DNA from: Deltaproteobacteria bacterium
Lineage (GTDB): Bacteria > Myxococcota_A > UBA796 > UBA9615
Reading direction: 5' to 3'
Assembly: GCA_002724675.1 (NCBI GenBank)
Contig: PBPL01000101.1
Location: 8-64,007, forward strand
Length of the DNA: 64,000 bases
The notes under the pieces were generated by a model. That model was not told the origin of the DNA, searched no databases, and saw nothing but the letters and a program-made list of their open reading frames with translations. Shown here piece after piece: positions 49,530 through 60,562 of this stretch (position 1 is the first letter of the stretch; each line of letters opens with the position of its first letter). Both the position numbers and the translations under genes were made by a program.

Positions 49530-50462
49530 TTACTCGAAGCCAATCAGCCAGATCGCCTGTCCACCGTACTGCCCAGACAGGTCCGTGCCCACGTAGGGGT
49601 TGGTCTCGGTGTTCTTGAAGAACTCCCAGTATCCGTACCACGAAGAGCCGGGGCCCGCCGCAGCCGAGACCTGGTTGATACCAATCTCGTTGGACAGCGT
49701 TCCAGGGGTGTTGTTCACGAAACCAGCGTGGGTGAACTCAAGCCCGTACTCAGACAGGGTCTGCTCGATCTCGGCAGCGCTGTAGCCACCGTCCACCGTC
49801 AGCTCCATGCCCTGATCGCTCATCGTGGTGACATCCACCAAGCCGAGGCTGAGGAAGTCGCCCATGCCACCATCGGTGATGGGAGTCAGCAGCGAGGGGC
49901 CGAAGTTGGCGCCGGCGAGGTCCAGCTCGGCGACATCGCAGTCGTCCGGGTTGGTCGCAGGATCGGAGATGTCGGTGGCCGACGTGTGATCGAACTCAAT
50001 GGAGCCCGTGCAGTTGTTGCAGCCTTCACCAGCCAGGATGCCGGGGCCGAAGGTGGCAGAGCCAGCGATCTGAATCCACTGCGTGCAGTTCAGGATCTGG
50101 GTTGCCTCGTTGTACTCAGCCCAGTAGTTGACACCGAACACGGCAGAGATGTCGGTAGAGGAGTCGTCCACGGGGACCGCTTCCATCTCGATGGAGAAGC
50201 TGATGGCAGCCAGCGCGAACTCAGCCGCGGTGTCGTCATCATCATCGTCGTCATCATCATCGTCGTCGCCGAGGTTGTTACCACCGTCGTCGTCGTCGTC
50301 ACCAGGAATGTTGTTGCCGTCGTTGTCAGTGTCACCGTCGATGGACGAGTCGCCACCATTGGCACCATCTGTGCGGGCATCACAGCCCATTCCAACCAAC
50401 GCAACACCCACAACCAGCGCCAACATATAGCTACTGAACATCTTCACGATAACCTTGAACAT
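49530..50462 (-). CDS. Asp-rich lipoprotein, function unknown
   Basis: ATG 50460-50462 preceded by GGAGGGAG. Lipobox LVGMGC. D/N/G-rich region including D5 and D12 runs. The remainder has no recognisable motif. Confidence 0.65.
   Translation of the reverse strand: MFKVIVKMFSSYMLALVVGVALVGMGCDARTDGANGGDSSIDGDTDNDGNNIPGDDDDDGGNNLGDDDDDDDDDDDDTAAEFALAAISFSIEMEAVPVDDSSTDISAVFGVNYWAEYNEATQILNCTQWIQIAGSATFGPGILAGEGCNNCTGSIEFDHTSATDISDPATNPDDCDVAELDLAGANFGPSLLTPITDGGMGDFLSLGLVDVTTMSDQGMELTVDGGYSAAEIEQTLSEYGLEFTHAGFVNNTPGTLSNEIGINQVSAAAGPGSSWYGYWEFFKNTETNPYVGTDLSGQYGGQAIWLIGFE
50232..50300 (-). repeat. GAY (Asp) codon tract encoding GDDDDDGGNNLGDDDDDDDDDDDD
   Basis: The plus strand reads GTCGTCATCATCATCGTCGTCATCATCATCGTCGTC..., a low-complexity trinucleotide tract inside the lipoprotein CDS. 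Confidence 0.9.
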
Positions 50463-50704
50463 TCGGGTCTCCCTCCACCTCGCATATACCGACCAGACCG
50501 GTTGCAGACACCCTGCAACACGAACCATCCAGCCCAGCTGAGTGCGAGCGGCGAGCGGTATGTACCCGAGAGCCGCGCGAAAGAAAAGTCCTTTTTCGAA
50601 CAAGCCCTACGCGAAACGGCAACAGGCATCGAAATCGGAAAAAACAAGAAGAGACGCAACTTCAAGACAAGGTCGACGCTGTAACCGATAGCGGCAACCG
50701 CAGC

Positions 50705-52073: not shown

Positions 52074-53498
52074 ATGAACCTCGTTGTCGACGAGGTTGTT
52101 TCGCTGCACAGCGACAACCTCTCTCATGTATTCCATGTACCCACATCATCGCTGTATGCGATGGACTCCGAAACCATGTCTATCCTCGAGGGTGCTCGTG
52201 ATGGACTGCATACCGATCAGAGCCTGCAGAAACTGACGGCGGACTCAGGTCTCGACCCGGCCGAGGTCGAGGACATCATCGACAATTTGGTGAAGTTGCG
52301 TCTCCTGGTCCCACCAGGCGAGACCGGCAACCGAGGCCCACTTGCTGACCGGCCGCAGAGTGGCCGGAGCATGGGCAATCTCGTCCTCCACGTGGCACAC
52401 ACCTGCAATCTGGGTTGCGGCTACTGCTATGCGGAGCAAGGCCTGTACAAGGGCAAAGCCACCCTCATGAACGAAGAGCGAGCCCATGAATATGTGGACT
52501 GGCTATTCGACCAGTGTGATCCGGAGACCAAGTCTCTCGGCATCACTTTCTTCGGGGGCGAGCCACTGCTGAATCTGAAAGTCATGAAGTCCGCCGCAGC
52601 CCATGCTCGAGAACGAGCGGACACGGACAACAAGTCTGTGCGGTTCTCCGTGACGACCAACGGCACCCTAGTCACCCCCGAGATCGTCGACTTTCTAGCC
52701 GCCATCGACTGTGTCGTCACAGTGAGTCTGGACGGCATCGGCAAGACCAACGATCGCCTGCGCCCGTTCCACTCGGGCCGCGGGTCCTACGACCTCGTCC
52801 TGGACCGCATCCAACCGCTCCTCGAACGGGGCAAGGTGGCTGCCCGTGTCACCGTCACCCGGCAGAACCTCGATGTCGTAGACACCGTCACGACGCTCCT
52901 CGAACGAGGCTTCGCTGAGGTGGGGTGCTCGCCAGTCGATGCGAAGAATCCTGCCTACGACCTGCGAGGGGAAGACTACGAAGTGCTGCTCGATGGCTTC
53001 GGCACACTCTCCCGACGCTACATCGACGAGGCCGTGCAGGGTCGTAAGTACGGCTTCTCTAACATCGCCAACATCATCAAGGCGGTGCACCAAGGGCACA
53101 ACAAGGACTACCCGTGCGGCGCGGGGCTCCAGATGGTTGCGGGTGCCCCCAACGGTGAGATGAGCCTATGCCACCGATTCGTTGGTGAGCCGGACTACGT
53201 CCTTGGCAACGTCAAAGAGGGTGGAATCGATAGCCATCGTCGGCTTCAGATCCTCGAGGACATCCAGCTGTCCGAGCGATCCGACTGCTCCAGTTGCTGG
53301 GCCCGTTACATCTGCTCCGGCGGATGCCACCACGTCAACTTCCTGTTCGAGGGAGACCCCAGCCGCACTTACCTGACCCACTGTGACTACCTCCGAGCTT
53401 GGTATCGCATGGGCCTCGAAGCCTACGCTGAGATCATGTCACGCAACCCCGAGTTCGTCGGGGAGTTCATCGACCCCGGTTTTCTGTGCAATCAGTAA
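52074..53498 (+). CDS. qhpD: Radical SAM / SPASM-domain peptide-modifying enzyme (QhpD-like thioether-forming maturase)
   Basis: CX3CX2C at C111/C115/C118 (CNLGCGYC, nt 52404-52427). Full 7-Cys SPASM motif: C348-x12-G-x4-C366 ... C405-x2-C408-x5-C414-x3-C418 ... C437 (nt 53115-53384). About 100 aa N-terminal to the core could be a peptide-binding (RRE-like) region. Sits immediately upstream of a QhpC-like peptide gene. Confidence 0.8.
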   Translation: MNLVVDEVVSLHSDNLSHVFHVPTSSLYAMDSETMSILEGARDGLHTDQSLQKLTADSGLDPAEVEDIIDNLVKLRLLVPPGETGNRGPLADRPQSGRSMGNLVLHVAHTCNLGCGYCYAEQGLYKGKATLMNEERAHEYVDWLFDQCDPETKSLGITFFGGEPLLNLKVMKSAAAHARERADTDNKSVRFSVTTNGTLVTPEIVDFLAAIDCVVTVSLDGIGKTNDRLRPFHSGRGSYDLVLDRIQPLLERGKVAARVTVTRQNLDVVDTVTTLLERGFAEVGCSPVDAKNPAYDLRGEDYEVLLDGFGTLSRRYIDEAVQGRKYGFSNIANIIKAVHQGHNKDYPCGAGLQMVAGAPNGEMSLCHRFVGEPDYVLGNVKEGGIDSHRRLQILEDIQLSERSDCSSCWARYICSGGCHHVNFLFEGDPSRTYLTHCDYLRAWYRMGLEAYAEIMSRNPEFVGEFIDPGFLCNQ

Positions 53499-53535
53499 CG
53501 AGAGCCTAAGATTGGCGCGAAAAGGAACCCAGCCC

Positions 53536-53832
53536 ATGAGCCGAATCAAGCCTCTGAACATTAAGGCAAGAGCTGTCGAAGCGAGCACAGACCGCGACGT
53601 GCGGGGCTACGCATTCGGCGACTGCTGCGCATCCTTCGCGCCGGGTTGGGAGGTGGGCACCCAAGACAACGCCGACCCCTGCCCGTGGAAGAGCGACCTC
53701 AGCCTCTGCTGGGGCACCTGCTACTGGATGGGTCAGGTGCCCGACTACATCTCGTACGGGGAGTGGCTCGACACCTGCGGCAACATTCAGAACGACTGGC
53801 GCAATCTCTGTACCATTCCGGACAACGGGTGA
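53536..53832 (+). CDS. qhpC: 98-aa Cys/Trp-rich precursor peptide, QhpC-like (gamma subunit of quinohemoprotein amine dehydrogenase; CTQ and thioether carrier)
   Basis: ATG 53536 preceded by AAAGGAA. Sequence MSRIKPLNIKARAVEASTDRDVRGYAFGDCCASFAPGWEVGTQDNADPCPWKSDLSLCWGTCYWMGQVPDYISYGEWLDTCGNIQNDWRNLCTIPDNG. Blocks C-x3-F-x-PGWEV, C-x3-C-x-W-x3-VPD and DWRNL match my recollection of Pseudomonas/Paracoccus QhpC. The Cys-to-acceptor spacings match the published crosslinks (see findings). Confidence 0.75.
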   Translation: MSRIKPLNIKARAVEASTDRDVRGYAFGDCCASFAPGWEVGTQDNADPCPWKSDLSLCWGTCYWMGQVPDYISYGEWLDTCGNIQNDWRNLCTIPDNG

Positions 53833-54908
53833 CGCTCATGCTCCAGCGCACGAACTCCTATATCTGCACTCTGGCCGCTCTCGTCGCGGCTGCCGTCTGG
53901 CTGCTCGCCCTGCCTCAGCACACAGAGGCGGCGGGCGCTCGCACTGCATGGGTATCTAGCAACCACATCCAGGTCATTGACCTGGACACGGCTCGGGTCA
54001 TTGGCCGGCTGCCGCTCTCCGAGTTCATCCACGACATGGACTTCAGCGTGGACGGCAACCGCGTGTACGTAGGCAGCAGCAAGGGGCTGCGTGTGGCCGA
54101 TGCCAACGAGCTCCGGTTTGTGCAGCAGGTGTCCACGAGCATGACCAAGGCCGTAGCGGTCTCCAAAGACGGCAGTCGCGTCGCAGCGATTCATCCTGGG
54201 GACCGAGAGGCGACACAGGCAGCCCGGAAAGCTGGCCTTCCCCTCCCCCCCGCCAAGATCACGATCTACTCGACGCTGGACATGAAGGAACAGAGTTCCT
54301 GGCACGTGCACGCCATGACATTCGATGTCCTGTTCGCGCCATCGAACGATCGGGTCTACGTGTTGGTACCCCCCGAGGGCATGGTCTATGTCCACGACTT
54401 GAGTGGGGCAGTTCTCGACACCATTCAGCTCGTACCGAGGAGCCCCGAGGGTTCCCACCAGGGAGCAATGCTGACCTGGATGGCGCTCTCGCCCGATGGC
54501 CGATCGCTGGTGGTCCCCGGCACAACCGCAGACCGATCGTTCGTAGCAGAGGTCGACCTGGGCAACAGACGACCCCTGGATGAACGCGTGGTCCACCAAG
54601 ATCTGGGACACAACCGGAGGATCCAAGGGCTGGCTTGGGACGATGACGGCAGTGGTGTTTACGTCACTGCAGTGAACTCCATGGTCAAGTTCAATGGTCT
54701 CGGTCTTCCCATCGCCTGGGAATCCATGCCGCTCAACTACGTCGACATCGAGCCCATCCCAGGCACCAACGAGAACGTCCTGGTGGCGCCCATCTTCTCC
54801 AAGTCCAACAAGAGCGGGGGGGTCGCCATCTTGGGCGAAAACGGCGAGTTCCTGAGAACGGTGGAGTTGCCCGACATGAGCCCCTACTTCGTGGCTGTCC
54901 GACCCTGA
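53829..54908 (+). CDS. qhpB: Periplasmic 7-bladed beta-propeller protein (QhpB-like beta subunit)
   Basis: GTG 53829 overlaps the precursor stop (GTGA); ATG 53838 is an alternative start. Signal peptide ...ICTLAALVAAAVWLLALPQHTEA-AG. Seven repeats of the pattern hydrophobic strand-D/N-x-turn...(S/D)xDGxRVYV, e.g. IQVIDLDTARVIG...FSVDGNRVYV, LRVADANELRF...VSKDGSRVAA, ALSPDGRSLVV, WDDDGSGVYV. Confidence 0.7.
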   Translation: MTLMLQRTNSYICTLAALVAAAVWLLALPQHTEAAGARTAWVSSNHIQVIDLDTARVIGRLPLSEFIHDMDFSVDGNRVYVGSSKGLRVADANELRFVQQVSTSMTKAVAVSKDGSRVAAIHPGDREATQAARKAGLPLPPAKITIYSTLDMKEQSSWHVHAMTFDVLFAPSNDRVYVLVPPEGMVYVHDLSGAVLDTIQLVPRSPEGSHQGAMLTWMALSPDGRSLVVPGTTADRSFVAEVDLGNRRPLDERVVHQDLGHNRRIQGLAWDDDGSGVYVTAVNSMVKFNGLGLPIAWESMPLNYVDIEPIPGTNENVLVAPIFSKSNKSGGVAILGENGEFLRTVELPDMSPYFVAVRP

Positions 54909-55900
54909 CCACACTCTGCCTACACGCGCCCGACCGGGCGCGGCTGACGCAACTTGAGCAAGCCTCGGACCTTCGTCGGTCGGAGGCTGCCTGGCTATCC
55001 AGTCTGCCCGACTACAGCCGGCTCTATTTTGGGGTCGAGTTCTGCGAGCACCTGCTTCCCAGCGCGGACGACGTGGAGGCCGCTTGCGACTTCTGCAACC
55101 GGCGTCAATGGAAGCTAACGCTGCTGACACCCTACGTAACCGACTGGGGGCTCGAGAAGATCGACCCACTCCTCCAGGCCCTAGACACCATGGCGCCCCA
55201 TGGCACCGAGGTGGTCGTCAACGACTGGGGAGTACTCCGCCAGGTAGCCAACCGCTCCAACGCAGACCTCTTGGTTGTACTGGGCCGAGGGTTGAACCGG
55301 ATGTTCCGCGACCCGAGAGTTCCCGATGTAGGTCCAGAACATCTGGGGGGAGACGCTCCACCGAGCGCTTGGCGTAGCGCGAGCCACCAGAGTCAGGGTT
55401 TCCGAACCATGCTCCGCTCGGCAGGCATCCAACGGATCGAAACGGACATGCCGATGCAAGGTATGCAGGACCTGGACCCCGACGAACAAGACCTGAAGCT
55501 AAGTGTTCACCTGCCCTATGGAATGGTGGCCAGCGGCCGCATCTGCATGATGAGCGCCCTTGGGCAGTCGGCTTCAGTGCGATTCCCCCCACCTCGCGCC
55601 TGCACTGCGCCCTGCCACGACTACACTTTGGAGCTTCGCGCGCCCTGGACGCGTCGAGCGGTTGGAGCAGGCCGGCTACCCCTGGTTGCAGAGGACAGCT
55701 TTCTGCCTCTAGACCACGTGCTCAATCGCCGTCGTAACGCGTTTCCAGCCCACGAGAATGACGACGCACCGAGGTTCATCCAGAAAGGCAACACCCACTT
55801 CTACTGCCTGGACGAGGAGAAGGTGGACAGTGCGCTGGACTGGGTCCACCGCAACCCCACAGCAGACCGCATCGTGGTAGCACCTGACGTGCCCATGTAG
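54905..55900 (+). CDS. Divergent peptidase-U32-family (TIM-barrel) protein, first of a tandem pair; probable CTG start
   Basis: The listed ORF starts at GTG 55073. The same frame is open back to 54902 and encodes TTLCLHAPDRARLTQLEQ...YSRLYFGVEFC, paralogous to the N-terminus of the next gene (QILCPVNSPEEVAPLVDAGADEFYCG), which is the typical U32 start. U32-like core KLTLLTPYV...EVVVNDWGVLRQV...GIQRIETDMP. Cys cluster C-x19-C-x3-C (GRICMM...RACTAPCH). Confidence 0.5.
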   Translation: MTTLCLHAPDRARLTQLEQASDLRRSEAAWLSSLPDYSRLYFGVEFCEHLLPSADDVEAACDFCNRRQWKLTLLTPYVTDWGLEKIDPLLQALDTMAPHGTEVVVNDWGVLRQVANRSNADLLVVLGRGLNRMFRDPRVPDVGPEHLGGDAPPSAWRSASHQSQGFRTMLRSAGIQRIETDMPMQGMQDLDPDEQDLKLSVHLPYGMVASGRICMMSALGQSASVRFPPPRACTAPCHDYTLELRAPWTRRAVGAGRLPLVAEDSFLPLDHVLNRRRNAFPAHENDDAPRFIQKGNTHFYCLDEEKVDSALDWVHRNPTADRIVVAPDVPM

Positions 55901-55928
55901 GCTTGCGAGCCCTAGGACCCAGAGCCCC

Positions 55929-57035
55929 GTGCAAATCCTTTGCCCCGTCAACAGCCCCGAAGAGGTCGCTCCGCTTGTGGATGCAGGGGCGGACGAGTTC
56001 TACTGCGGCCTGTTCCCCACAGAGTGGTACGAAAAGTGGGGTCGTGGGAGCTGGCCTAACCGGCGCGGACCAGGCCCGGCCAACATCAGCAAGATTGACG
56101 ACCTGGCGCGGCTGGCAGACAGCGTGCACACCGCAGGCTCCGGTGGGCCCAACCAGCGGCGAGTTCCACTGTTCGTTGCGCTAAACCAACAGTTCTACCC
56201 AGACGACCAGGCGGACTTCCTCCTGGGGATCGCTCAGGACCTCCAGAGCCGCTCCGCTGTGGACGCCTTCATAGTGAGTGACCCCGGCTTCATGGGCCTC
56301 TTGAAGACTGAGATTCCGGAGGCGCGAGTCTTCTCCTCCACGGTGTCTGTTGCAACCAATGCTCAGGCGGTCCGGTTTCTTGCGGACTTGGGATGCTCCC
56401 GAGTCATCCTGTCCCGTCATCTGCACCTGGCCGAGGTCGAGTCGCTGCAACAATCCGTCCCCGATGTGGAGCTGGAGGTCTTCCTGCTCAACGACAACTG
56501 TTATTTCGAGGAAGGCTTCTGCAGCACGACACACACCATGCCGGGCTTCGGTGTCTACTGCATGACACCGTGGGAGCTGAGAGTCACCCGCGATGATCAG
56601 GGGGGGCAGGGTCTATCCGATCCCGAGGAGCGAGCTCGCTGGGACTTTCTCATCGACGAGCACCGACGCTTCCTGGGCAATCTGTCGCACCGGGGTTTTG
56701 GGGGCGGTCGCGCAGCAGTTCCGCTCGGACCATGCGGACTCTGCGCGATCCCCAAGCTCATGGACCTGGGCATCCACAGCGGCAAGATCGTGGGTAGGGA
56801 GGCCAGCCTGTATCGAAAGATCCGCTCTGTTCAGTCCGTCCGATACGTACGGGACAGCTATCGAGAAACCGGAGATGCTCAAGAGGCAAAGAAGAAGGCA
56901 GTAGAGCTTCGTGCTGACCCACGGGGTTGCAGTAGCGGCATGTCCTGTTACTACCGTAGCGCCCGAGACCGCGACCTCATCCCCCTGCCCTCCCGGAGCA
57001 CCAAGAAGCCGACTCGAAACGCGACCAAGCCATGA
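55929..57035 (+). CDS. Peptidase-U32-family protein, second of the tandem pair
   Basis: GTG start. MQILCPVNSPEEVAPLVDAGADEFYCG, VALNQQFYPDD...DAFIVSDPGFMGLLK, VSVATNAQAVRFLADLGCSRVILSRHLHLAEV and FLLNDNCYFEEGFCSTTHTMPGFGVYC (CX6CX12C), plus PCGLC. This is the U32 architecture with Fe-S-type cysteines, as in the UbiU/UbiV/RlhA family. Confidence 0.65.
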   Translation: MQILCPVNSPEEVAPLVDAGADEFYCGLFPTEWYEKWGRGSWPNRRGPGPANISKIDDLARLADSVHTAGSGGPNQRRVPLFVALNQQFYPDDQADFLLGIAQDLQSRSAVDAFIVSDPGFMGLLKTEIPEARVFSSTVSVATNAQAVRFLADLGCSRVILSRHLHLAEVESLQQSVPDVELEVFLLNDNCYFEEGFCSTTHTMPGFGVYCMTPWELRVTRDDQGGQGLSDPEERARWDFLIDEHRRFLGNLSHRGFGGGRAAVPLGPCGLCAIPKLMDLGIHSGKIVGREASLYRKIRSVQSVRYVRDSYRETGDAQEAKKKAVELRADPRGCSSGMSCYYRSARDRDLIPLPSRSTKKPTRNATKP

Positions 57036-58927
57036 CCTCAAAGGGGTCCCCTCCCCCCTCTCCAGCCTTTGTGCCCGAGGCCATACGGCCGGACTCGGTG
57101 CGCCCAGCCGACACGGAGGTGTCGGAGCACACGAAGGTCCCCTGGAAGCGCGTCTTCAGCTACCTACTGCCCTACTGGAAGGCCGAGGTCCTTCTGGTGC
57201 TCGGTATGGCGATCGGTATTGGGCTCTCCTTGGTCTACCCGTTCCTGCTGCGAGAAATCGTCGACGATGTGGTGGGCCCCGGCGCCTCGGCTGCGACCGA
57301 TCGATTGTTACCCCTTGCCGCCCTCATCCTGGCCGCCACGGCCGGCGGGGTCGTGCTCTCTGCCGCTGCCGCCTGGCTCCAGACCTGGGTCACAGCACAC
57401 GTCCTCGTTGATCTCCGCTTGGAGTTGTTCCAGCACCTTCAGTCATTGGGCCCTGCTTTCTTTGCCCGCAAGCGACTGGGGGACGTCCTGTCTCGCATGG
57501 GAGGAGACCTCGCCGAGCTGCAACAGGTGGCCACCGGAACTCTCATCAATGTCATTGGGTCGGTCGTCACACTCGTGGGAGTCATCACGGCGCTCACCTT
57601 CCTCCAGCCCCTATTGCTTGCCGTAGGCGCGGCGTTCATCCCCATCGCTATCGGCTTACTGGTGCTGCTTCGGCCCATCATCCGGCGCCTGTCTTTGAGG
57701 ATTCGAGAGCGCAACGCTGACATCTCCCATCAGATGTTGGAGAGCCTAACCGGCCTGCGCACGGTCCTGGCCCACGGGCTTGCCGACCGAGAAGCGAAGC
57801 GGTTCGAGGGCAACAACTTGGCGTTGATCCGAGCCGTTCTGCTCTTCCGCCTGTGGAACTCGGGATCAGCCGGCGCCTTCCAGATCCTCGTCACGGCGAA
57901 CCTCCTGGCTGTCCTCGTCGTTGGTGTCTGGCTGATGCGAACGACTGCGATGACCCCAGGCGACCTCGTCGCGTTCCTCCTGTTCCAACAGCGACTCTAC
58001 GGTCCGCTGCAGGGGCTGGCGGGCACTTATGTCAATCTGCAGCGGGCAGCAGCGTCAGTGGCGCGAGTCTTCGAGTTGCGCGACGCCAAGCCCCTGGAGG
58101 CTGCCGACCCGGCCCTGTCCCTCGACGAACCCTTCCAGGGACGCGTCGAGTTCGACAAGGTTTCGTTCCAATACGCTCCCGGACGACGGGTTCTGACCGA
58201 CCTGACGATGCGAGTGGATCCCGGAGAGACCGTGTGCCTGGTCGGCCCCTCAGGAGTGGGCAAGACGACCGTCCTCGAGCTCATGTTTCGATTCGTCGAC
58301 CCCGATGAGGGACGCGTTCTACTGGACGGCATCGATCTTCGAGAACTGGACCTCGACAGCGTTCTGCCCCAGGTCGCGTTGGTAGGCCAAGAGCCCGCGC
58401 TGTTCGATGGCACTCTACGCGACAACCTCCGATGGCTCCGGCCGGACGCGCCAGAGGCCACCATGAACGAAGTGGTCGAGCAAGTGGGCTTGTCGGAGTT
58501 CGTCCGCAGCCTGCCCCAGGGGCTGGAGACTCCTCTCGGCGACCGCGGCATTCGCCTGTCCTCTGGGCAGCGCCAGCGCATCGGGCTCGCCCGCGCGCTT
58601 CTCCGAGAACCCGTCCTCTTGGTGCTGGACGAAGTCACCTCGGCCCTGGACTGGGAGAGTGACCGGCTCGTCGTCGAAGCACTCCAAGCTCGGCGAGCCT
58701 CGGGCTGCACCACCCTGATCATCTCCCACCGCCTGCATCTTGCCGTCGATGCAGACCGAGTCGTCGTACTAGAAGACGGTCACGTGGCGACCACAGGCAC
58801 CCACCTCACCCTGCTCGACCAGGGCGGACTGTACCGCAGACTTTGGGACTTGCAGCGAGGCGCGGCAGAGGCCAGGAGGTCCCCCAGCAGCGGCAGAACA
58901 CACCCCACCGAGGACGGCTCGGCGTGA
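57032..58927 (+). CDS. qhpF: ABC exporter, fused TMD-NBD half transporter (QhpF-like)
   Basis: ATGA overlap with the U32 stop. Six-helix TMD followed by Walker A GPSGVGKTT, signature LSSGQRQRIGLARAL and Walker B LLVLDEVTSALD. Confidence 0.8.
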   Translation: MTSKGSPPPSPAFVPEAIRPDSVRPADTEVSEHTKVPWKRVFSYLLPYWKAEVLLVLGMAIGIGLSLVYPFLLREIVDDVVGPGASAATDRLLPLAALILAATAGGVVLSAAAAWLQTWVTAHVLVDLRLELFQHLQSLGPAFFARKRLGDVLSRMGGDLAELQQVATGTLINVIGSVVTLVGVITALTFLQPLLLAVGAAFIPIAIGLLVLLRPIIRRLSLRIRERNADISHQMLESLTGLRTVLAHGLADREAKRFEGNNLALIRAVLLFRLWNSGSAGAFQILVTANLLAVLVVGVWLMRTTAMTPGDLVAFLLFQQRLYGPLQGLAGTYVNLQRAAASVARVFELRDAKPLEAADPALSLDEPFQGRVEFDKVSFQYAPGRRVLTDLTMRVDPGETVCLVGPSGVGKTTVLELMFRFVDPDEGRVLLDGIDLRELDLDSVLPQVALVGQEPALFDGTLRDNLRWLRPDAPEATMNEVVEQVGLSEFVRSLPQGLETPLGDRGIRLSSGQRQRIGLARALLREPVLLVLDEVTSALDWESDRLVVEALQARRASGCTTLIISHRLHLAVDADRVVVLEDGHVATTGTHLTLLDQGGLYRRLWDLQRGAAEARRSPSSGRTHPTEDGSA

Positions 58928-59658
58928 ACAAGTCCACTACAGACCGAGGTCCTCTGGTCGCTGTCGTGGACAGTGGCGTGGCAGCCGGACACCCGCACTT
59001 GGAAGGCCTACAGTTGCGTTCCTTCTCCCTCGAGGGAGCGGGATCACCACTGGACCGACGGCCAGAGGCATCGGACCGGACAGGGCATGGCACTGCGTGT
59101 GTTGCCGCCCTATACCGGGCGAATCCCCGGGTGGAGGTCCTAGCAATCCGTCTCTTGGATGAAGAGTTGAGAACAACCGCCGAGGCTGTGGCCGAGGCGA
59201 TCCGCGTCGCTGCCGACGAAGGAGCGAAGGTCATCAACCTCAGCCTGGGCTCGGGCAGGGCCGAATCGAGGTCCCTACTGGAGGAGGCCGTGCTGTACGC
59301 CAGGGAGCGGTCAGCACACTGTGTGGCTGCCGCCCACCCAAAGGGACGGCAGCTTTGGCCAGCCGACCTGCCCAGCGTGATCTCAGCGATTAGTCACCGC
59401 AGTTGCCCTCTCAGCGACCTGTATCGTGTGGAGGGGCCACTGCCCCGGTTTCTCGCGCACGGCTATCCACGGCCCATCGAGGGCCGGCCCCCCACCGCCA
59501 ATCTGTACGGCCCATCGTTTGCCGCCATTCACTTGTCAGCAAAGGTTGCGGAGATTCTGACCAGAGACTCCCAGTTGGCATTCTCCGACATCGTCACCTG
59601 CCTGGAAGAGAGCTGTTCCGGCTCCTGGAATGAAACCAGCACTCACCCTAGGTCTTGA
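58924..59658 (+). CDS. qhpE: Cytoplasmic subtilisin-like (S8) serine protease (QhpE-like leader peptidase)
   Basis: GTGA overlap with the ABC stop. Asp block LVAVVDSGV, His block DRTGHGTACVAAL, Asn region VINLSLG, Ser block YGPSFAAIHLSA. No signal peptide. Only 244 aa. Confidence 0.7.
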   Translation: MNKSTTDRGPLVAVVDSGVAAGHPHLEGLQLRSFSLEGAGSPLDRRPEASDRTGHGTACVAALYRANPRVEVLAIRLLDEELRTTAEAVAEAIRVAADEGAKVINLSLGSGRAESRSLLEEAVLYARERSAHCVAAAHPKGRQLWPADLPSVISAISHRSCPLSDLYRVEGPLPRFLAHGYPRPIEGRPPTANLYGPSFAAIHLSAKVAEILTRDSQLAFSDIVTCLEESCSGSWNETSTHPRS

Positions 59659-59683
59659 CCGACCCCTCCCAGCCCGATAAACG

Positions 59684-60562
59684 GTGTACATGTCTCCCGC
59701 ACCTGACGAACCGAGCTTCGAAGACGCTGAAGAGGCGTTCGAGCGTGGCGACGTCGAGACTGCCCTGGCGATCTGTGAGGGCTACCTCGGCGAAGACGAG
59801 TCCAAGGCACCCGTCGAGGCCCTCTACTTAGCTGCAGAGTGTCTCCTGGAGCTCCAGGAGGTCACCGAAGCGACCCACATGATCGACCTGGCCTTGAACG
59901 AGCACCCAGACGACGCCGTGCTGGTACACACGAAAGCCATTTGCTGCTTCGAGCAAGCCAAGCTCGAAGATGCTCGGAAGGGCTTCGAGAGAGCCGCGAA
60001 CCTGGACGACCAACTGGGGGAGCCGCTGTTCTACCTAGGCATCCTGACCGAACGAGACGGTGACTTCGGCGCAGCAGACCGCCTCTTTGAGCACGGTGTT
60101 CGCTTGGACCCCGAGAACCTGTCCCTGCCGGTCGATTGGCCGGCCGACAAGGTTCGCCAGATCTTCGATGAGGTGGTCGAAGAGATGCCAGATCCTTTTG
60201 GCATGTGGCTGGCTGGTCTGCGCGTGGACGTGGCCGACCTTCCCGACGACGCTGCTCTGGCTGCCGCAGAGGGACCCATCTCCCCACTCGTTCACTGTCT
60301 CTTTGACGGGCCAGCACCAAGCCCTCCGGCGGAGAAGACGGACCCCGACGAGTGGCTTACGACCCACCCGAGCCGCGTCCGACTGTTTCGACGCAACCTG
60401 GGCAAGAGCGCCCACGACGAGTACGAGCTACACCGAGAGATACTCGAAGCTCTCCTCTGGGAATCCATGGAGTTCCTGGGCCTCGACGAGGGACACCTGG
60501 CCAAGCTCGGTATCCTCGACGACGAGGACGACGAGGCGCTGCTCCCGGGCAAGCCCCACTAG
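59684..60562 (+). CDS. TPR-repeat protein fused to a degenerate Zincin_1 (DUF1025-like) domain that lacks the HExxH histidines
   Basis: N-terminal TPR-like helices (AEEAFERGDVETALAICEGYL..., AICCFEQAKLEDARKGFERAANLD..., LFYLGILTERDGDFGAADRLFEHGVRLDP). The C-terminus VRLFRRNLGKSA...REILEALLWESMEFLGLDEGHLAKLG aligns with the ...VLHEIGHHFGLDEEDL..LG family motif, but W/E/F replace the His ligands. 25 nt after qhpE-like, and the last gene before a strong hairpin. Confidence 0.55.
   Translation: MYMSPAPDEPSFEDAEEAFERGDVETALAICEGYLGEDESKAPVEALYLAAECLLELQEVTEATHMIDLALNEHPDDAVLVHTKAICCFEQAKLEDARKGFERAANLDDQLGEPLFYLGILTERDGDFGAADRLFEHGVRLDPENLSLPVDWPADKVRQIFDEVVEEMPDPFGMWLAGLRVDVADLPDDAALAAAEGPISPLVHCLFDGPAPSPPAEKTDPDEWLTTHPSRVRLFRRNLGKSAHDEYELHREILEALLWESMEFLGLDEGHLAKLGILDDEDDEALLPGKPH

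What the first reader, a model, noticed from the sequence alone, without database searches (positions are those of the whole stretch)
54905..57035. A tandem pair of U32-family proteins stands in for the missing QhpG: candidate O2-independent tryptophan hydroxylase for quinone cofactor biogenesis
The two adjacent paralogous ORFs have U32 (TIM-barrel 'peptidase') hallmarks. They carry clustered cysteines suited to Fe-S binding: CX6CX12C plus PCGLC in the second, and C-x19-C-x3-C in the first.

Established knowledge: U32 members UbiU/UbiV act as a heterodimer in O2-independent hydroxylation of ubiquinone precursors. RlhA and TrhP hydroxylate rRNA and tRNA bases. All use Fe-S clusters rather than O2-dependent flavin chemistry.

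In canonical qhp operons the Trp of QhpC is dihydroxylated by the flavoprotein QhpG. No such gene is in this operon. Neither U32 ORF has a signal peptide, so both are cytoplasmic, like QhpG's site of action before export.

Inference: the pair forms a UbiU/V-like heterodimer that oxygenates Trp64 of the crosslinked peptide without O2. That would be a new substrate class (protein/peptide Trp) for U32 enzymes. An alternative is a genuine protease or chaperone role.
Basis: inference. Interest (0 to 1): 0.85.

Follow-up and report, generated by a model that had tools for sequence, protein, structure and literature searches.

The report
Iron-sulfur enzyme pair replacing QhpG
Two adjacent genes for a U32-type iron-sulfur enzyme and its partner sit in quinone-cofactor amine dehydrogenase operons that lack the oxygen-using tryptophan hydroxylase QhpG, so they are probably an oxygen-independent replacement for it.

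Summary
The observation largely holds. ORF5 (55929-57035) is a clear U32 protein with the UbiU-type CX6CX12C motif plus four further conserved cysteines. ORF4 (54905-55900) hits no curated U32 model, so calling the pair "tandem U32 paralogues" is only partly right. ORF4 is a remote relative: hhalign against the ORF5 family gives 94% probability, the model is a TIM barrel, and it has four invariant cysteines arranged as in UbiV.

The pair lies inside a qhp-like operon: qhpD, qhpC, a qhpB-like propeller, ORF4, ORF5, an ABC exporter and qhpE. QhpC keeps every cross-link residue and the quinone-forming Trp64. No QhpG or QhpA homologue occurs in the 64 kb.

Among 45 qhp loci complete enough to judge:
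- 25 carry QhpG only.
- 17 carry ORF4+ORF5 only. These are 12 Bacillales genomes and 5 marine MAG-type loci.
- 1 carries both.
- 2 carry neither.

Two further ORF4-anchored loci (Acidobacteriota and another metagenome) show the same link. Three findings support a UbiU/UbiV-like, prephenate-dependent hydroxylase: a natural ORF4-ORF5 fusion, an ORF5-chorismate mutase fusion, and congruent trees for the two proteins.

I found no publication making this link.

The parts
52074..53498 (+). qhpD-like radical SAM/SPASM peptide maturase (474 aa). It would form the thioether cross-links in QhpC.
   Evidence: TIGR03906 quino_hemo_SAM is the best NCBIfam hit (E=1.1e-111, 374 bits, below the equivalog cutoff of 453). 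Pfam Radical_SAM and Fer4_12 also match. It is 33% identical to the Aneurinibacillus QhpD encoded in a full qhp operon.
53536..53832 (+). qhpC-like gamma-subunit precursor (98 aa), the presumed substrate. A leader of about 27 residues precedes a core that keeps all CTQ and cross-link residues. Trp64 (53725-53727) is the quinone-forming Trp.
   Evidence: NF037958 QH_gamma scores 63 bits, above its cutoff of 50. PF08992 matches at E=1.6e-10. It aligns to PDB 1JMX_G and 1JJU_C. In 7 sequences, C30, E39, D54, C58, C62, W64 and D70 are invariant.
53838..54908 (+). Divergent qhpB-like beta-propeller (356 aa) with an N-terminal signal-like hydrophobic segment.
   Evidence: Direct hits are only weak (TIGR03907 QH_beta E=0.0099; WD40-like). 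Iterative jackhmmer merges it with the QhpB proteins of canonical loci. The N-terminus MLQRTNSYICTLAALVAAAVWLLALPQHTEAAG was read directly.
54905..55900 (+). ORF4: partner subunit (331 aa). It is a TIM-barrel protein with four invariant Cys: C47 (55043-55045), C214 (55544-55546), C233 (55601-55603) and C237 (55613-55615). This is a candidate [4Fe-4S] site with UbiV-like geometry (CXnCX18CX3C). It starts at a CTG that overlaps the upstream TGA.
   Evidence: Family alignment; no Pfam or NCBIfam model; hhalign to the ORF5 family 94%, E=1.5e-7; AF2 pLDDT 87.5 with the N-terminal 56 residues confidently folded; U32 structure 5d88 among the top structural matches; CTG/TGA overlap conserved in 6 loci; 2,140 representative clusters in the family.
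55929..57035 (+). ORF5: U32-family catalytic subunit (368 aa), UbiU-like. Conserved Cys are C191, C198, C211 (CX6CX12C), C269/C272 (PCGLC) and C334/C340.
   Evidence: PF01136 E=5.5e-35. Partial TrhP and UbiU NCBIfam hits lie far below cutoff. BLASTP to E. coli UbiU gives 27% identity, E=1e-16. Cys conservation was checked in 31 sequences. No PDB sequence relative was found.
57032..58927 (+). qhpF-like ABC exporter (631 aa, fused TMD-NBD). Its ATG overlaps the ORF5 stop (ATGA).
   Evidence: ABC_membrane and ABC_tran match; MsbA-like. It holds the same position as the ABC gene in Bacillales and canonical qhp loci. The overlap was read directly.
58924..59658 (+). qhpE-like subtilisin-family leader peptidase (244 aa). 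Its GTG overlaps the ABC stop (GTGA).
   Evidence: NF049966 QhpE is the best hit (E=1.7e-37, 129 bits, below the cutoff of 165). PF00082 also matches. Gene call; overlap.
59690..60562 (+). TPR + Zincin_1 protein (290 aa). It is the last gene of the operon and is conserved downstream in the marine MAG-type loci. Its role is unknown.
   Evidence: TPR families and PF06262 Zincin_1 match. Homologues follow qhpE in L008, L044, L047 and L050.

Best explanation
ORF4 and ORF5 form a cytoplasmic two-subunit iron-sulfur enzyme of the U32 superfamily, built like UbiU-UbiV. ORF5 is the U32 catalytic subunit. ORF4 is a highly diverged TIM-barrel partner whose four cysteines would hold a [4Fe-4S] cluster.

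In this operon the pair takes the place of the flavoprotein QhpG. QhpD first installs the three thioether cross-links in the QhpC precursor. The pair then dihydroxylates the indole ring of Trp64 without O2, most likely taking oxygen from prephenate as UbiU/V do. The modified peptide is exported by the ABC transporter, its leader is cut by the QhpE-like protease, and it joins the QhpB-like propeller in the periplasm. There the Cys58-Trp64 cysteine tryptophylquinone is completed.

Shown here:
- gene content and order;
- U32 membership of ORF5;
- remote homology and Cys conservation of ORF4;
- absence of QhpG from the window;
- the QhpG / ORF4+ORF5 alternation across loci;
- the two fusion proteins.

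Inferred:
- heterodimer formation and Fe-S binding;
- Trp64 as the substrate;
- prephenate as the O donor;
- the order of steps.
For: 1. Operon membership. All other qhp biogenesis functions are present (D, C, B-like, F-like, E-like). Neighbouring genes are linked by 4-nt start/stop overlaps: CTGA, ATGA, GTGA.
2. The substrate is intact. QhpC keeps the equivalents of C7, E16, C27, D33, C37, C41, W43 and D49.
3. QhpG is missing. The QhpG family was anchored on a metagenomic protein matching PDB 7CTQ_A 'Peptidyl tryptophan dihydroxylase' at E=8e-231. It has no member in the window or in any of the 17 pair-only loci.
4. Alternation. Of 45 informative qhp loci, 25 have QhpG only, 17 the pair only, 1 both and 2 neither. 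Fisher p=2.6e-9.
5. Recurrence with varied gene order:
- Bacillales: C-A-D-B-4-5-F-E.
- Acidobacteriota: A-D-C-B-4-5-F-E.
- L124: A-D-C-B-x-Aldedh-4-5.
- L126: D-C-x-x-S8-4-5-F.
- L082: the pair is on the opposite strand, upstream of the AraC regulator gene that precedes a complete QhpG-containing operon.
6. Two-subunit enzyme. ORF4-ORF5 adjacency is kept in every context. Their trees are congruent. P0349 is a natural ORF4-linker-U32 fusion on a 6.45-Mb contig.
7. Fe-S and hydroxylase chemistry. ORF5 shares C191/C198/C211 and other invariant residues with UbiU. ORF4's CXnCX18CX3C parallels UbiV's CXnCX12CX3C, where the first Cys is also far upstream (PMC6747719). UbiU/V perform several hydroxylations on one aromatic ring (PMC6747719).
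8. Prephenate link. P0171, 47% identical to ORF5, carries a C-terminal chorismate mutase domain (CM_2, E=8e-17) and follows an ORF4 fragment. Prephenate is the O donor for UbiU/V and is required for RlhA (PMC10990095, PMC5727448).
9. Neither protein has a signal peptide. This fits action before export, as for QhpG.
Against: - No biochemical or genetic data exist for any member of this pair.
- ORF5's fourth cluster ligand does not align with UbiU C232. ORF5 has seven conserved Cys, so its metal sites may differ.
- The family is not exclusive to qhp. Pairs occur next to an arylsulfotransferase-like propeller (L123), in a housekeeping neighbourhood (L127), as a fusion near a lactonase-like propeller (L128), and with a Frankia_peptide RiPP cluster (L125).
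- One locus has both QhpG and the pair (L082), and one well-covered locus has neither (L043).
- The 17 pair-only loci fall in only two lineages (12 Bacillales, 5 marine MAG-type). Even with the four other loci that carry the pair, the lineages are few, so the Fisher p-value overstates independence.
- Several hosts, such as Bacillus badius and Sporosarcina, are aerobes.
- A qhpG elsewhere in these genomes was not excluded.
Confidence: 0.6

Rival explanations
1. The pair does take part in QhpC or CTQ maturation, but not as the Trp dihydroxylase. It could instead catalyse or assist a different step. Candidates are oxidation to the quinone, Cys58-Trp64 cross-linking, or electron supply or scaffolding for the radical SAM enzyme QhpD. 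Trp oxygenation would then happen elsewhere, for example in the periplasm or by an unlinked enzyme.
For: The synteny and the QhpG alternation show a link to the pathway, not to a specific reaction. QhpG itself also has a non-catalytic role: it promotes QhpD cross-linking in a ternary complex (PMC7876137). ORF5 has three more conserved Cys than one [4Fe-4S] cluster needs, and ORF4 has four, which would suit electron transfer.
Against: QhpG's Trp dihydroxylation is the only function of the canonical qhp set without a counterpart in these operons. Every characterised or genetically assigned U32 function of this type is aromatic-ring hydroxylation (PMC6747719, PMC5727448, PMC10990095). The chorismate mutase fusion points to prephenate-dependent oxygen transfer rather than to mere electron transfer.
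Confidence: 0.17
2. The U32 protein is a genuine peptidase (collagenase-like PrtC type). It would process or quality-control QhpC or another operon product, with ORF4 as an accessory.
For: The family is named for reported collagenolytic activity of PrtC and HP0169 (PMC5727448). Databases annotate ORF5 homologues as 'putative protease' or 'U32 family peptidase'.
Against: A dedicated leader peptidase (QhpE-like S8) is already encoded in the operon. The invariant residues are cysteines typical of Fe-S ligation and are shared with UbiU. Canonical QhpG-type operons mature QhpC without any U32 protein. The chorismate mutase fusion has no rationale for a protease.
Confidence: 0.05
3. The pair has a substrate unrelated to QhpC, such as a quinone, an RNA base or another small aromatic molecule. 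Its place in the operon would reflect co-regulation or chance.
For: Members of the same ORF4/ORF5 clade occur without nearby qhp genes and are nested among qhp-linked ones in the tree: L123 and L127. The fusion protein at L128 also lies away from any qhp gene. Known U32 substrates are ubiquinone precursors, tRNA and rRNA.
Against: The pair is inserted inside the qhp transcription unit, between qhpB and qhpF, with overlapping or near-abutting reading frames. This holds in at least five lineages with different gene orders. It alternates with QhpG. Bacillales use menaquinone (my own knowledge), so a ubiquinone role is unlikely there. ORF5 scores far below the TrhP and UbiU equivalog cutoffs (82 against 534 and 73 against 440).
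Confidence: 0.06

Closest known systems
UbiU-UbiV (E. coli YhbU/YhbV), the O2-independent, prephenate-dependent ubiquinone hydroxylase
   Same: Both are two adjacent genes for a U32 protein plus a smaller, more divergent partner. ORF5 shares 27% identity with UbiU and its first three cluster cysteines. ORF4 has a Cys arrangement of the UbiV type, with the first Cys far upstream followed by C-x(n)-C-x3-C. Both would carry out several hydroxylations on one aromatic ring. Both are cytoplasmic. In one locus (L082) the pair coexists with an O2-dependent flavin hydroxylase, as UbiU/V coexist with UbiI/H/F.
   Different: The proposed substrate is a Trp side chain in a cross-linked 9-kDa peptide, not a prenylated phenol, and no UbiT-like lipid carrier gene is present. 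ORF5 is not a UbiU equivalog (73 bits against a cutoff of 440). ORF4 is not detectably a UbiV family member and matches no U32 HMM. Gene order is partner first, then U32. ORF5 has four extra conserved cysteines, and the position of its fourth ligand differs from UbiU C232.
QhpG (peptidyl tryptophan dihydroxylase, PDB 7CTQ)
   Same: It occupies the same operon type and is missing from loci that have the pair. It is cytoplasmic and is proposed to act on the same substrate and reaction, 6,7-dihydroxylation of the CTQ-precursor Trp of cross-linked QhpC before export.
   Different: QhpG is a monomeric FAD-dependent, O2-using monooxygenase with no sequence or fold relationship to the pair. ORF4/ORF5 are TIM-barrel proteins with Fe-S-type cysteine motifs. 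This would be non-orthologous gene displacement.
RlhA and TrhP (U32 hydroxylases of 23S rRNA C2501 and tRNA U34)
   Same: All carry a U32 domain with CX6C-containing cysteine motifs. RlhA and TrhP depend on Fe-S biogenesis and on prephenate and hydroxylate an aromatic (hetero)cycle without O2. TrhP is the best NCBIfam hit of ORF5, but only over residues 111-198.
   Different: RlhA and TrhP are single polypeptides with extra C-terminal domains (DUF3656, Peptidase_U32_C) that are absent here. They act on RNA and have no ORF4-like partner.
Canonical quinohemoprotein amine dehydrogenase operon (qhpABCDEFGR of Paracoccus denitrificans and Pseudomonas putida)
   Same: qhpC, qhpD, a qhpB-like gene, a qhpF-like gene and a qhpE-like gene are present, and the QhpC cross-link and CTQ residues are conserved.
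   Different: The window and its marine relatives have no qhpA (dihaem alpha subunit) and no qhpG. QhpD, QhpE and QhpB score below NCBIfam equivalog cutoffs. An extra TPR-Zincin_1 gene is present.

Membership tests
Peptidase U32 superfamily (PF01136): ORF5 | Significant match to the PF01136 profile | tested here: met
   E=5.5e-35, 121.2 bits against a gathering cutoff of 22.4, covering residues 109-342.
Peptidase U32 superfamily (PF01136): ORF5 | Conserved cysteine motif of the CX6C...C type used to bind a [4Fe-4S] cluster (PMC6747719) | tested here: met
   C191-x6-C198-x12-C211 is invariant in 31 sequences and aligned with UbiU C169/C176/C193. C269/C272/C334/C340 are at least 90% conserved. 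Which residue is the fourth ligand is unresolved.
Peptidase U32 superfamily (PF01136): ORF4 | Significant match to the PF01136 profile | tested here: not met
   The window protein has no hit. Of 33 family members, one reaches E=0.18. No NCBIfam model matches either.
Peptidase U32 superfamily (PF01136): ORF4 | Remote homology or shared fold with U32 proteins | tested here: met
UbiU (NF047963 equivalog): ORF5 | Score above the curated equivalog cutoff | tested here: not met
   72.7 bits against a cutoff of 440, matching residues 76-200 only. ORF5 is a distinct U32 subfamily.
TrhP (NF011996 equivalog): ORF5 | Score above the curated cutoff, and presence of the U32 C-terminal domain | tested here: not met
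   82.5 bits against a cutoff of 534. There is no PF16325 match.
UbiV: ORF4 | Sequence membership in the UbiV family | tested here: not met
   hhalign to E. coli UbiV gives E=0.13. Against a 12-sequence enterobacterial UbiV profile it gives E=0.035, probability 1.5%. That profile was shallow, at 85% identity or more.
UbiV: ORF4 | CXnCX12CX3C motif with the first Cys far upstream of the other three (PMC6747719) | tested here: inconclusive
   ORF4 has invariant C47...C214-x18-C233-x3-C237. In the non-significant alignment C47 falls on UbiV C39. The pattern is analogous, but the spacing differs and homology of the sites is unproven.
UbiU-UbiV-type heterodimer | The two proteins co-occur, are adjacent, and associate physically | tested here: inconclusive
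   Adjacency holds in all 33 loci carrying both, and the NJ trees are congruent. A natural fusion protein P0349 exists.
UbiU-UbiV-type hydroxylase | Binds [4Fe-4S] clusters and uses prephenate as the O donor | not testable with these tools
   Only indirect evidence exists: conserved Cys and one ORF5::chorismate mutase fusion.
qhp (quinohemoprotein amine dehydrogenase) operon | QhpC gamma subunit with CTQ and thioether residues | tested here: met
   NF037958 scores 63 bits against a cutoff of 50. All eight key residues are conserved.
qhp (quinohemoprotein amine dehydrogenase) operon | QhpA dihaem alpha subunit | tested here: not met
   There is no QhpA homologue in the 64-kb window or in the marine MAG-type relatives. 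It is present in the Bacillales and Acidobacteriota loci that carry the pair.
qhp (quinohemoprotein amine dehydrogenase) operon | QhpG flavoprotein Trp dihydroxylase | tested here: not met
   jackhmmer seeded from a 7CTQ-matching protein (E=8e-231 to 7CTQ_A) finds 31 family members in other qhp loci (plus one marginal hit in a non-qhp locus) and none in the window.

The most novel reading that the evidence does not exclude
ORF4/ORF5 would be the first U32-type, prephenate-dependent, O2-independent hydroxylase acting on a protein side chain. It would give bacteria an anaerobic-capable route to a tryptophylquinone cofactor. The unannotated ORF4 family has about 2,100 representative clusters. Together with its U32 partner it would mark a wider class of peptide or protein aromatic-residue hydroxylases, which also appear next to beta-propeller proteins and in RiPP clusters.
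Probability: 0.5. Interest if true: 0.85.

Novelty: new variant of a known kind. Interest (0 to 1): 0.78.

Why it matters
1. It would show a second, unrelated enzymatic solution for making cysteine tryptophylquinone. It would also extend O2-independent U32 hydroxylation from lipids and RNA to a protein-derived cofactor.

2. As of the 2024 prephenate paper, U32 hydroxylases lacked an in vitro activity assay (PMC10990095 says so explicitly). A soluble 9-kDa peptide substrate whose +16/+32 Da products can be read by mass spectrometry, and for which the QhpCD preparation already exists (PMC7876137), could make the chemistry directly testable. That includes the O donor, the oxidant, and the roles of the two clusters.

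3. It gives a name and a testable function to a sizeable protein family with no Pfam or NCBIfam model. It also corrects a recurrent gene-call error in which the CTG start is missed and a cluster ligand is lost.

4. It offers cultivable, genetically accessible test organisms that carry the full operon, such as Aneurinibacillus, Neobacillus mesonae and Bacillus badius.

Tried and rejected
- BLASTP of ORF4 against ORF5 found no similarity.
- Pfam and NCBIfam scans of ORF4 and of 33 relatives gave nothing significant.
- An HMM of the ORF4 family against PDB sequences returned only chance hits to designed TIM barrels. phmmer of ORF5 against PDB found no hit, so no UbiU-like structure is available.
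- Foldseek against afdb50 was unavailable.
- hhalign of ORF4 against UbiV, both as a single sequence and as a shallow profile, was not significant. The last protein search returned only UbiV sequences at 85% identity or more.
- The genome-contig scan with a two-sequence QhpD alignment used narrow patterns. It missed canonical proteobacterial operons, and half of its 34 loci were other rSAM maturases. L024 proved to be a SCIFF-like locus. The contingency table therefore rests mainly on the metagenome scan with QhpC.
- A minus-strand FAD gene between ORF4 and ORF5 in L011 was considered as an alternative hydroxylase. It was rejected because it is amine-oxidase-like, unique to that locus, and not in the QhpG family.
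- A programmed frameshift fusing the propeller to ORF4 was considered. It was rejected because it would join a secreted protein to a cytoplasmic Fe-S protein. The other gene junctions use the same 4-nt overlap with ATG or GTG.

Full report
**What is at the coordinates**

The stretch 52074-60562 is one tightly packed plus-strand gene set:
- a QhpD-like radical SAM/SPASM maturase (52074-53498);
- a QhpC-like precursor (53536-53832);
- a signal-peptide-bearing beta-propeller (53838-54908);
- ORF4 (54905-55900);
- ORF5 (55929-57035);
- an ABC exporter (57032-58927);
- a QhpE-like subtilase (58924-59658);
- a TPR-Zincin_1 protein (59690-60562).

Three junctions are 4-nt start/stop overlaps: CTGA, ATGA and GTGA. 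A promoter-like site lies just upstream of qhpD, though the count of such sites is at chance level, and no plus-strand terminator-like site lies inside the set. The rest of the window is ordinary chromosome: complex I subunits, RelA/SpoT, Ffh and a heptosyltransferase. The identical operon is on TARA Oceans and other marine contigs. The record is a MAG labelled 'Deltaproteobacteria bacterium'.

**Checking the observation**

ORF5 is an unambiguous U32 protein.
- PF01136 matches at E=5.5e-35.
- It is 27% identical to E. coli UbiU, E=1e-16.
- It lies far below the UbiU and TrhP equivalog cutoffs, so it belongs to a separate subfamily.
- In a 31-sequence alignment, C191, C198 and C211 are invariant and coincide with the UbiU ligands C169, C176 and C193.
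- C269/C272 (the PCGLC motif) and C334/C340 are at least 90% conserved.

ORF4 is different.
- BLASTP finds nothing in common with ORF5.
- Neither ORF4 nor its relatives hit any Pfam or NCBIfam model.
- Profile-profile comparison links the ORF4 family to the ORF5 family over the N-terminal half of the barrel, with probability 94% and E=1.5e-7.
- A confident AF2 model (pLDDT 87.5, pTM 0.88) is a TIM barrel.
- Four cysteines are invariant in 33 sequences: C47, C214, C233 and C237.

This arrangement has the first Cys far upstream followed by C-x(n)-C-x3-C. Pelosi et al. describe the same layout for the UbiV cluster ligands (PMC6747719). Even so, ORF4 cannot be assigned to the UbiV family statistically.

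**The start of ORF4**

There is no ATG, GTG or TTG between the upstream in-frame stop and GTG 55073. Yet the 56 residues before that GTG are conserved, are confidently folded in the model, and contain invariant C47. In the window and five related loci, the ORF4 frame begins at a CTG that overlaps the TGA of the propeller gene. Other relatives have ATG, GTG or TTG at the equivalent place. The database gene call of 275 aa (P0001) is therefore truncated.

**The operon is a genuine qhp relative**

QhpC passes the NCBIfam QH_gamma cutoff. It aligns with the gamma subunits of PDB 1JJU and 1JMX. All residues that form the three thioether bridges and the cysteine tryptophylquinone are conserved. Iterative search joins the propeller to QhpB.

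I built a QhpG family by jackhmmer from a metagenomic protein that matches PDB 7CTQ_A at E=8e-231. It has 31 members in other qhp loci (plus one marginal hit in a non-qhp locus) and none in this window. No QhpA homologue is present either.

**Comparative genomics**

The closest non-MAG relatives of ORF5 are in Bacillales. In Aneurinibacillus thermoaerophilus the gene lies in a complete operon, qhpC-qhpA-qhpD-qhpB-ORF4-ORF5-ABC-S8. Eleven further Bacillales genomes have the same arrangement, among them Sporosarcina, Neobacillus mesonae, Brevibacillus massiliensis, Bacillus badius and B. aerolatus. None has a Rossmann-type FAD gene within 10 kb.

A metagenome scan seeded with QhpC gave 80 more loci. 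I counted only loci where QhpC, QhpD, the beta subunit, the ABC exporter and the S8 protease are all visible. That left 45 unique loci:
- 25 have QhpG and no pair.
- 17 have the pair and no QhpG.
- 1 (L082) has both.
- 2 have neither. L113 is cut at the contig end. L043 is a real exception.

Fisher p=2.6e-9 without correction for relatedness.

Look-ups starting from distant ORF4 homologues added three more qhp contexts:
- an Acidobacteriota operon, A-D-C-B-ORF4-U32-ABC-S8;
- a locus A-D-C-B-porin-like-Aldedh-ORF4-U32;
- a locus D-C-x-x-S8-ORF4-U32-ABC.

The association therefore recurs in several lineages and survives rearrangement. That is the signature of a functional link rather than inherited adjacency alone. 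In L082 the pair lies on the opposite strand, just beyond an AraC-type regulator gene that precedes a full QhpG-containing operon with an aldehyde dehydrogenase. This resembles E. coli, which keeps both the O2-dependent UbiI/H/F and the O2-independent UbiU/V.

**Evidence for a two-subunit, prephenate-using enzyme**

ORF4 and ORF5 are adjacent in all 33 loci that carry both. Their neighbour-joining trees have the same main groups. A profile search of 1.84 billion representatives finds 2,140 ORF4-family clusters. One of them (P0349, 705 aa, on a 6.45-Mb contig) is an ORF4 domain joined by a Pro/Arg/Ser-rich linker to a U32 domain. Another relative (P0171) is ORF5 fused to a type II chorismate mutase domain, and it is preceded by an ORF4 fragment. 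Chorismate mutase makes prephenate. Prephenate is the oxygen donor for UbiU/V-dependent hydroxylation and is required for RlhA (PMC10990095, PMC5727448).

**Limits**

- The family is not confined to qhp operons. Pairs occur beside an arylsulfotransferase-like propeller and a DoxX/MauE-like membrane protein (L123), in a housekeeping neighbourhood (L127), as the fusion protein near a lactonase-like propeller (L128), and, with a second U32 gene, in a Frankia_peptide/radical SAM RiPP cluster (L125). In the tree these are nested among qhp-linked members. Either their qhp genes lie elsewhere, or the family has several peptide or protein substrates.
- I could not search whole genomes for an unlinked qhpG, and I could not model the complex.
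- Several hosts are aerobes, so independence from O2 is a property of the proposed chemistry and not a demonstrated selective advantage.

**Literature**

The held library contains no paper with both 'U32' and 'quinohemoprotein amine dehydrogenase', or both 'peptidase U32' and 'cysteine tryptophylquinone'. The searches for U32+RiPP+hydroxylation and for QhpC/QhpD turned up nothing whose title or abstract makes the link, and term searches within the QhpG paper showed no discussion of operons lacking qhpG. Subscription-only papers were not searched.

**Verdict**

It is a new variant of a known enzyme kind, unproven biochemically, and readily testable.

Noticed in passing
window 54905-54908; also L008, L050, L051, L052, L053: ORF4 appears to start at a CTG codon that overlaps the TGA stop of the upstream propeller gene (CCTGA). 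This is conserved in six loci. Gene callers instead pick GTG 55073 and produce a 275-aa protein lacking invariant Cys47. The next two junctions in the operon use the same 4-nt overlap, with ATG and with GTG.
   Followed up: yes
window 52074-60562; L008, L044, L047, L050, L126: This marine lineage has a qhp-like operon with no QhpA dihaem subunit anywhere in the 64 kb. Its QhpB-like propeller is very divergent. It may encode a haem-less beta-gamma CTQ enzyme with an unknown electron acceptor and substrate.
   Followed up: partly
window 59690-60562: A TPR + Zincin_1 (PF06262) protein is conserved downstream of the QhpE-like protease in the marine MAG-type loci, directly after it in the window and L008 and with a gap of 1.3-1.5 kb in L047 and L050, and is absent from canonical and Bacillales operons. 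Its role is unknown.
   Followed up: partly
L082 2589-16294: One metagenomic locus carries both an intact QhpG and an ORF4/ORF5 pair. The pair lies on the opposite strand, beside an AraC-type regulator gene and a full qhpA-D-C-B-F-E set with an aldehyde dehydrogenase. This may be an O2-dependent/O2-independent dual system like UbiIHF plus UbiUV.
   Followed up: partly
L043 6900-18622: This locus has a QhpC 78% identical to the window's but neither QhpG nor ORF4/ORF5. After the ABC exporter come a 608-aa protein with no Pfam hit and a B12-binding radical SAM enzyme. It may be a third maturation variant.
   Followed up: partly
L123 7614-11689; L128 5894-11807: ORF4/U32 pairs, fused in L128, sit next to non-qhp beta-propeller-type genes (arylsulfotransferase-like or lactonase-like), in L123 directly downstream of it. 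A small membrane protein follows the pair. In L123 it weakly hits DoxX and MauE (methylamine utilisation). In L128 the 230-aa protein that follows was not analysed. These could be other systems for modifying protein residues.
   Followed up: partly
L125 636-12674: Two U32 genes and an ORF4-like gene directly precede a Frankia_peptide-type precursor. Next come a glycosyltransferase, an aminotransferase, a B12-radical SAM enzyme and two radical SAM/SPASM genes. This is a RiPP cluster that may use U32 chemistry on a peptide.
   Followed up: no
L010 4613-5713; L049 10474-11805; L011 3809-5659 (minus strand): Some marine relatives have an extra gene between ORF4 and ORF5. In L010 and L049 it is a ChaN-type haem-binding lipoprotein (PF04187). 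In L011 it is a unique minus-strand amine-oxidase-like flavoprotein.
   Followed up: partly
L054 921-1673: This locus carries two tandem QhpC-like genes ahead of the propeller, ORF4, ORF5, the ABC exporter and the S8 protease.
   Followed up: no
window 49530-50603 (minus strand): This is a predicted lipoprotein with a long Asp/Gly/Asn-rich acidic low-complexity stretch and no Pfam match. It lies between the carboxypeptidase-regulatory-like repeat protein and the M28 peptidase gene upstream of the operon.
   Followed up: no
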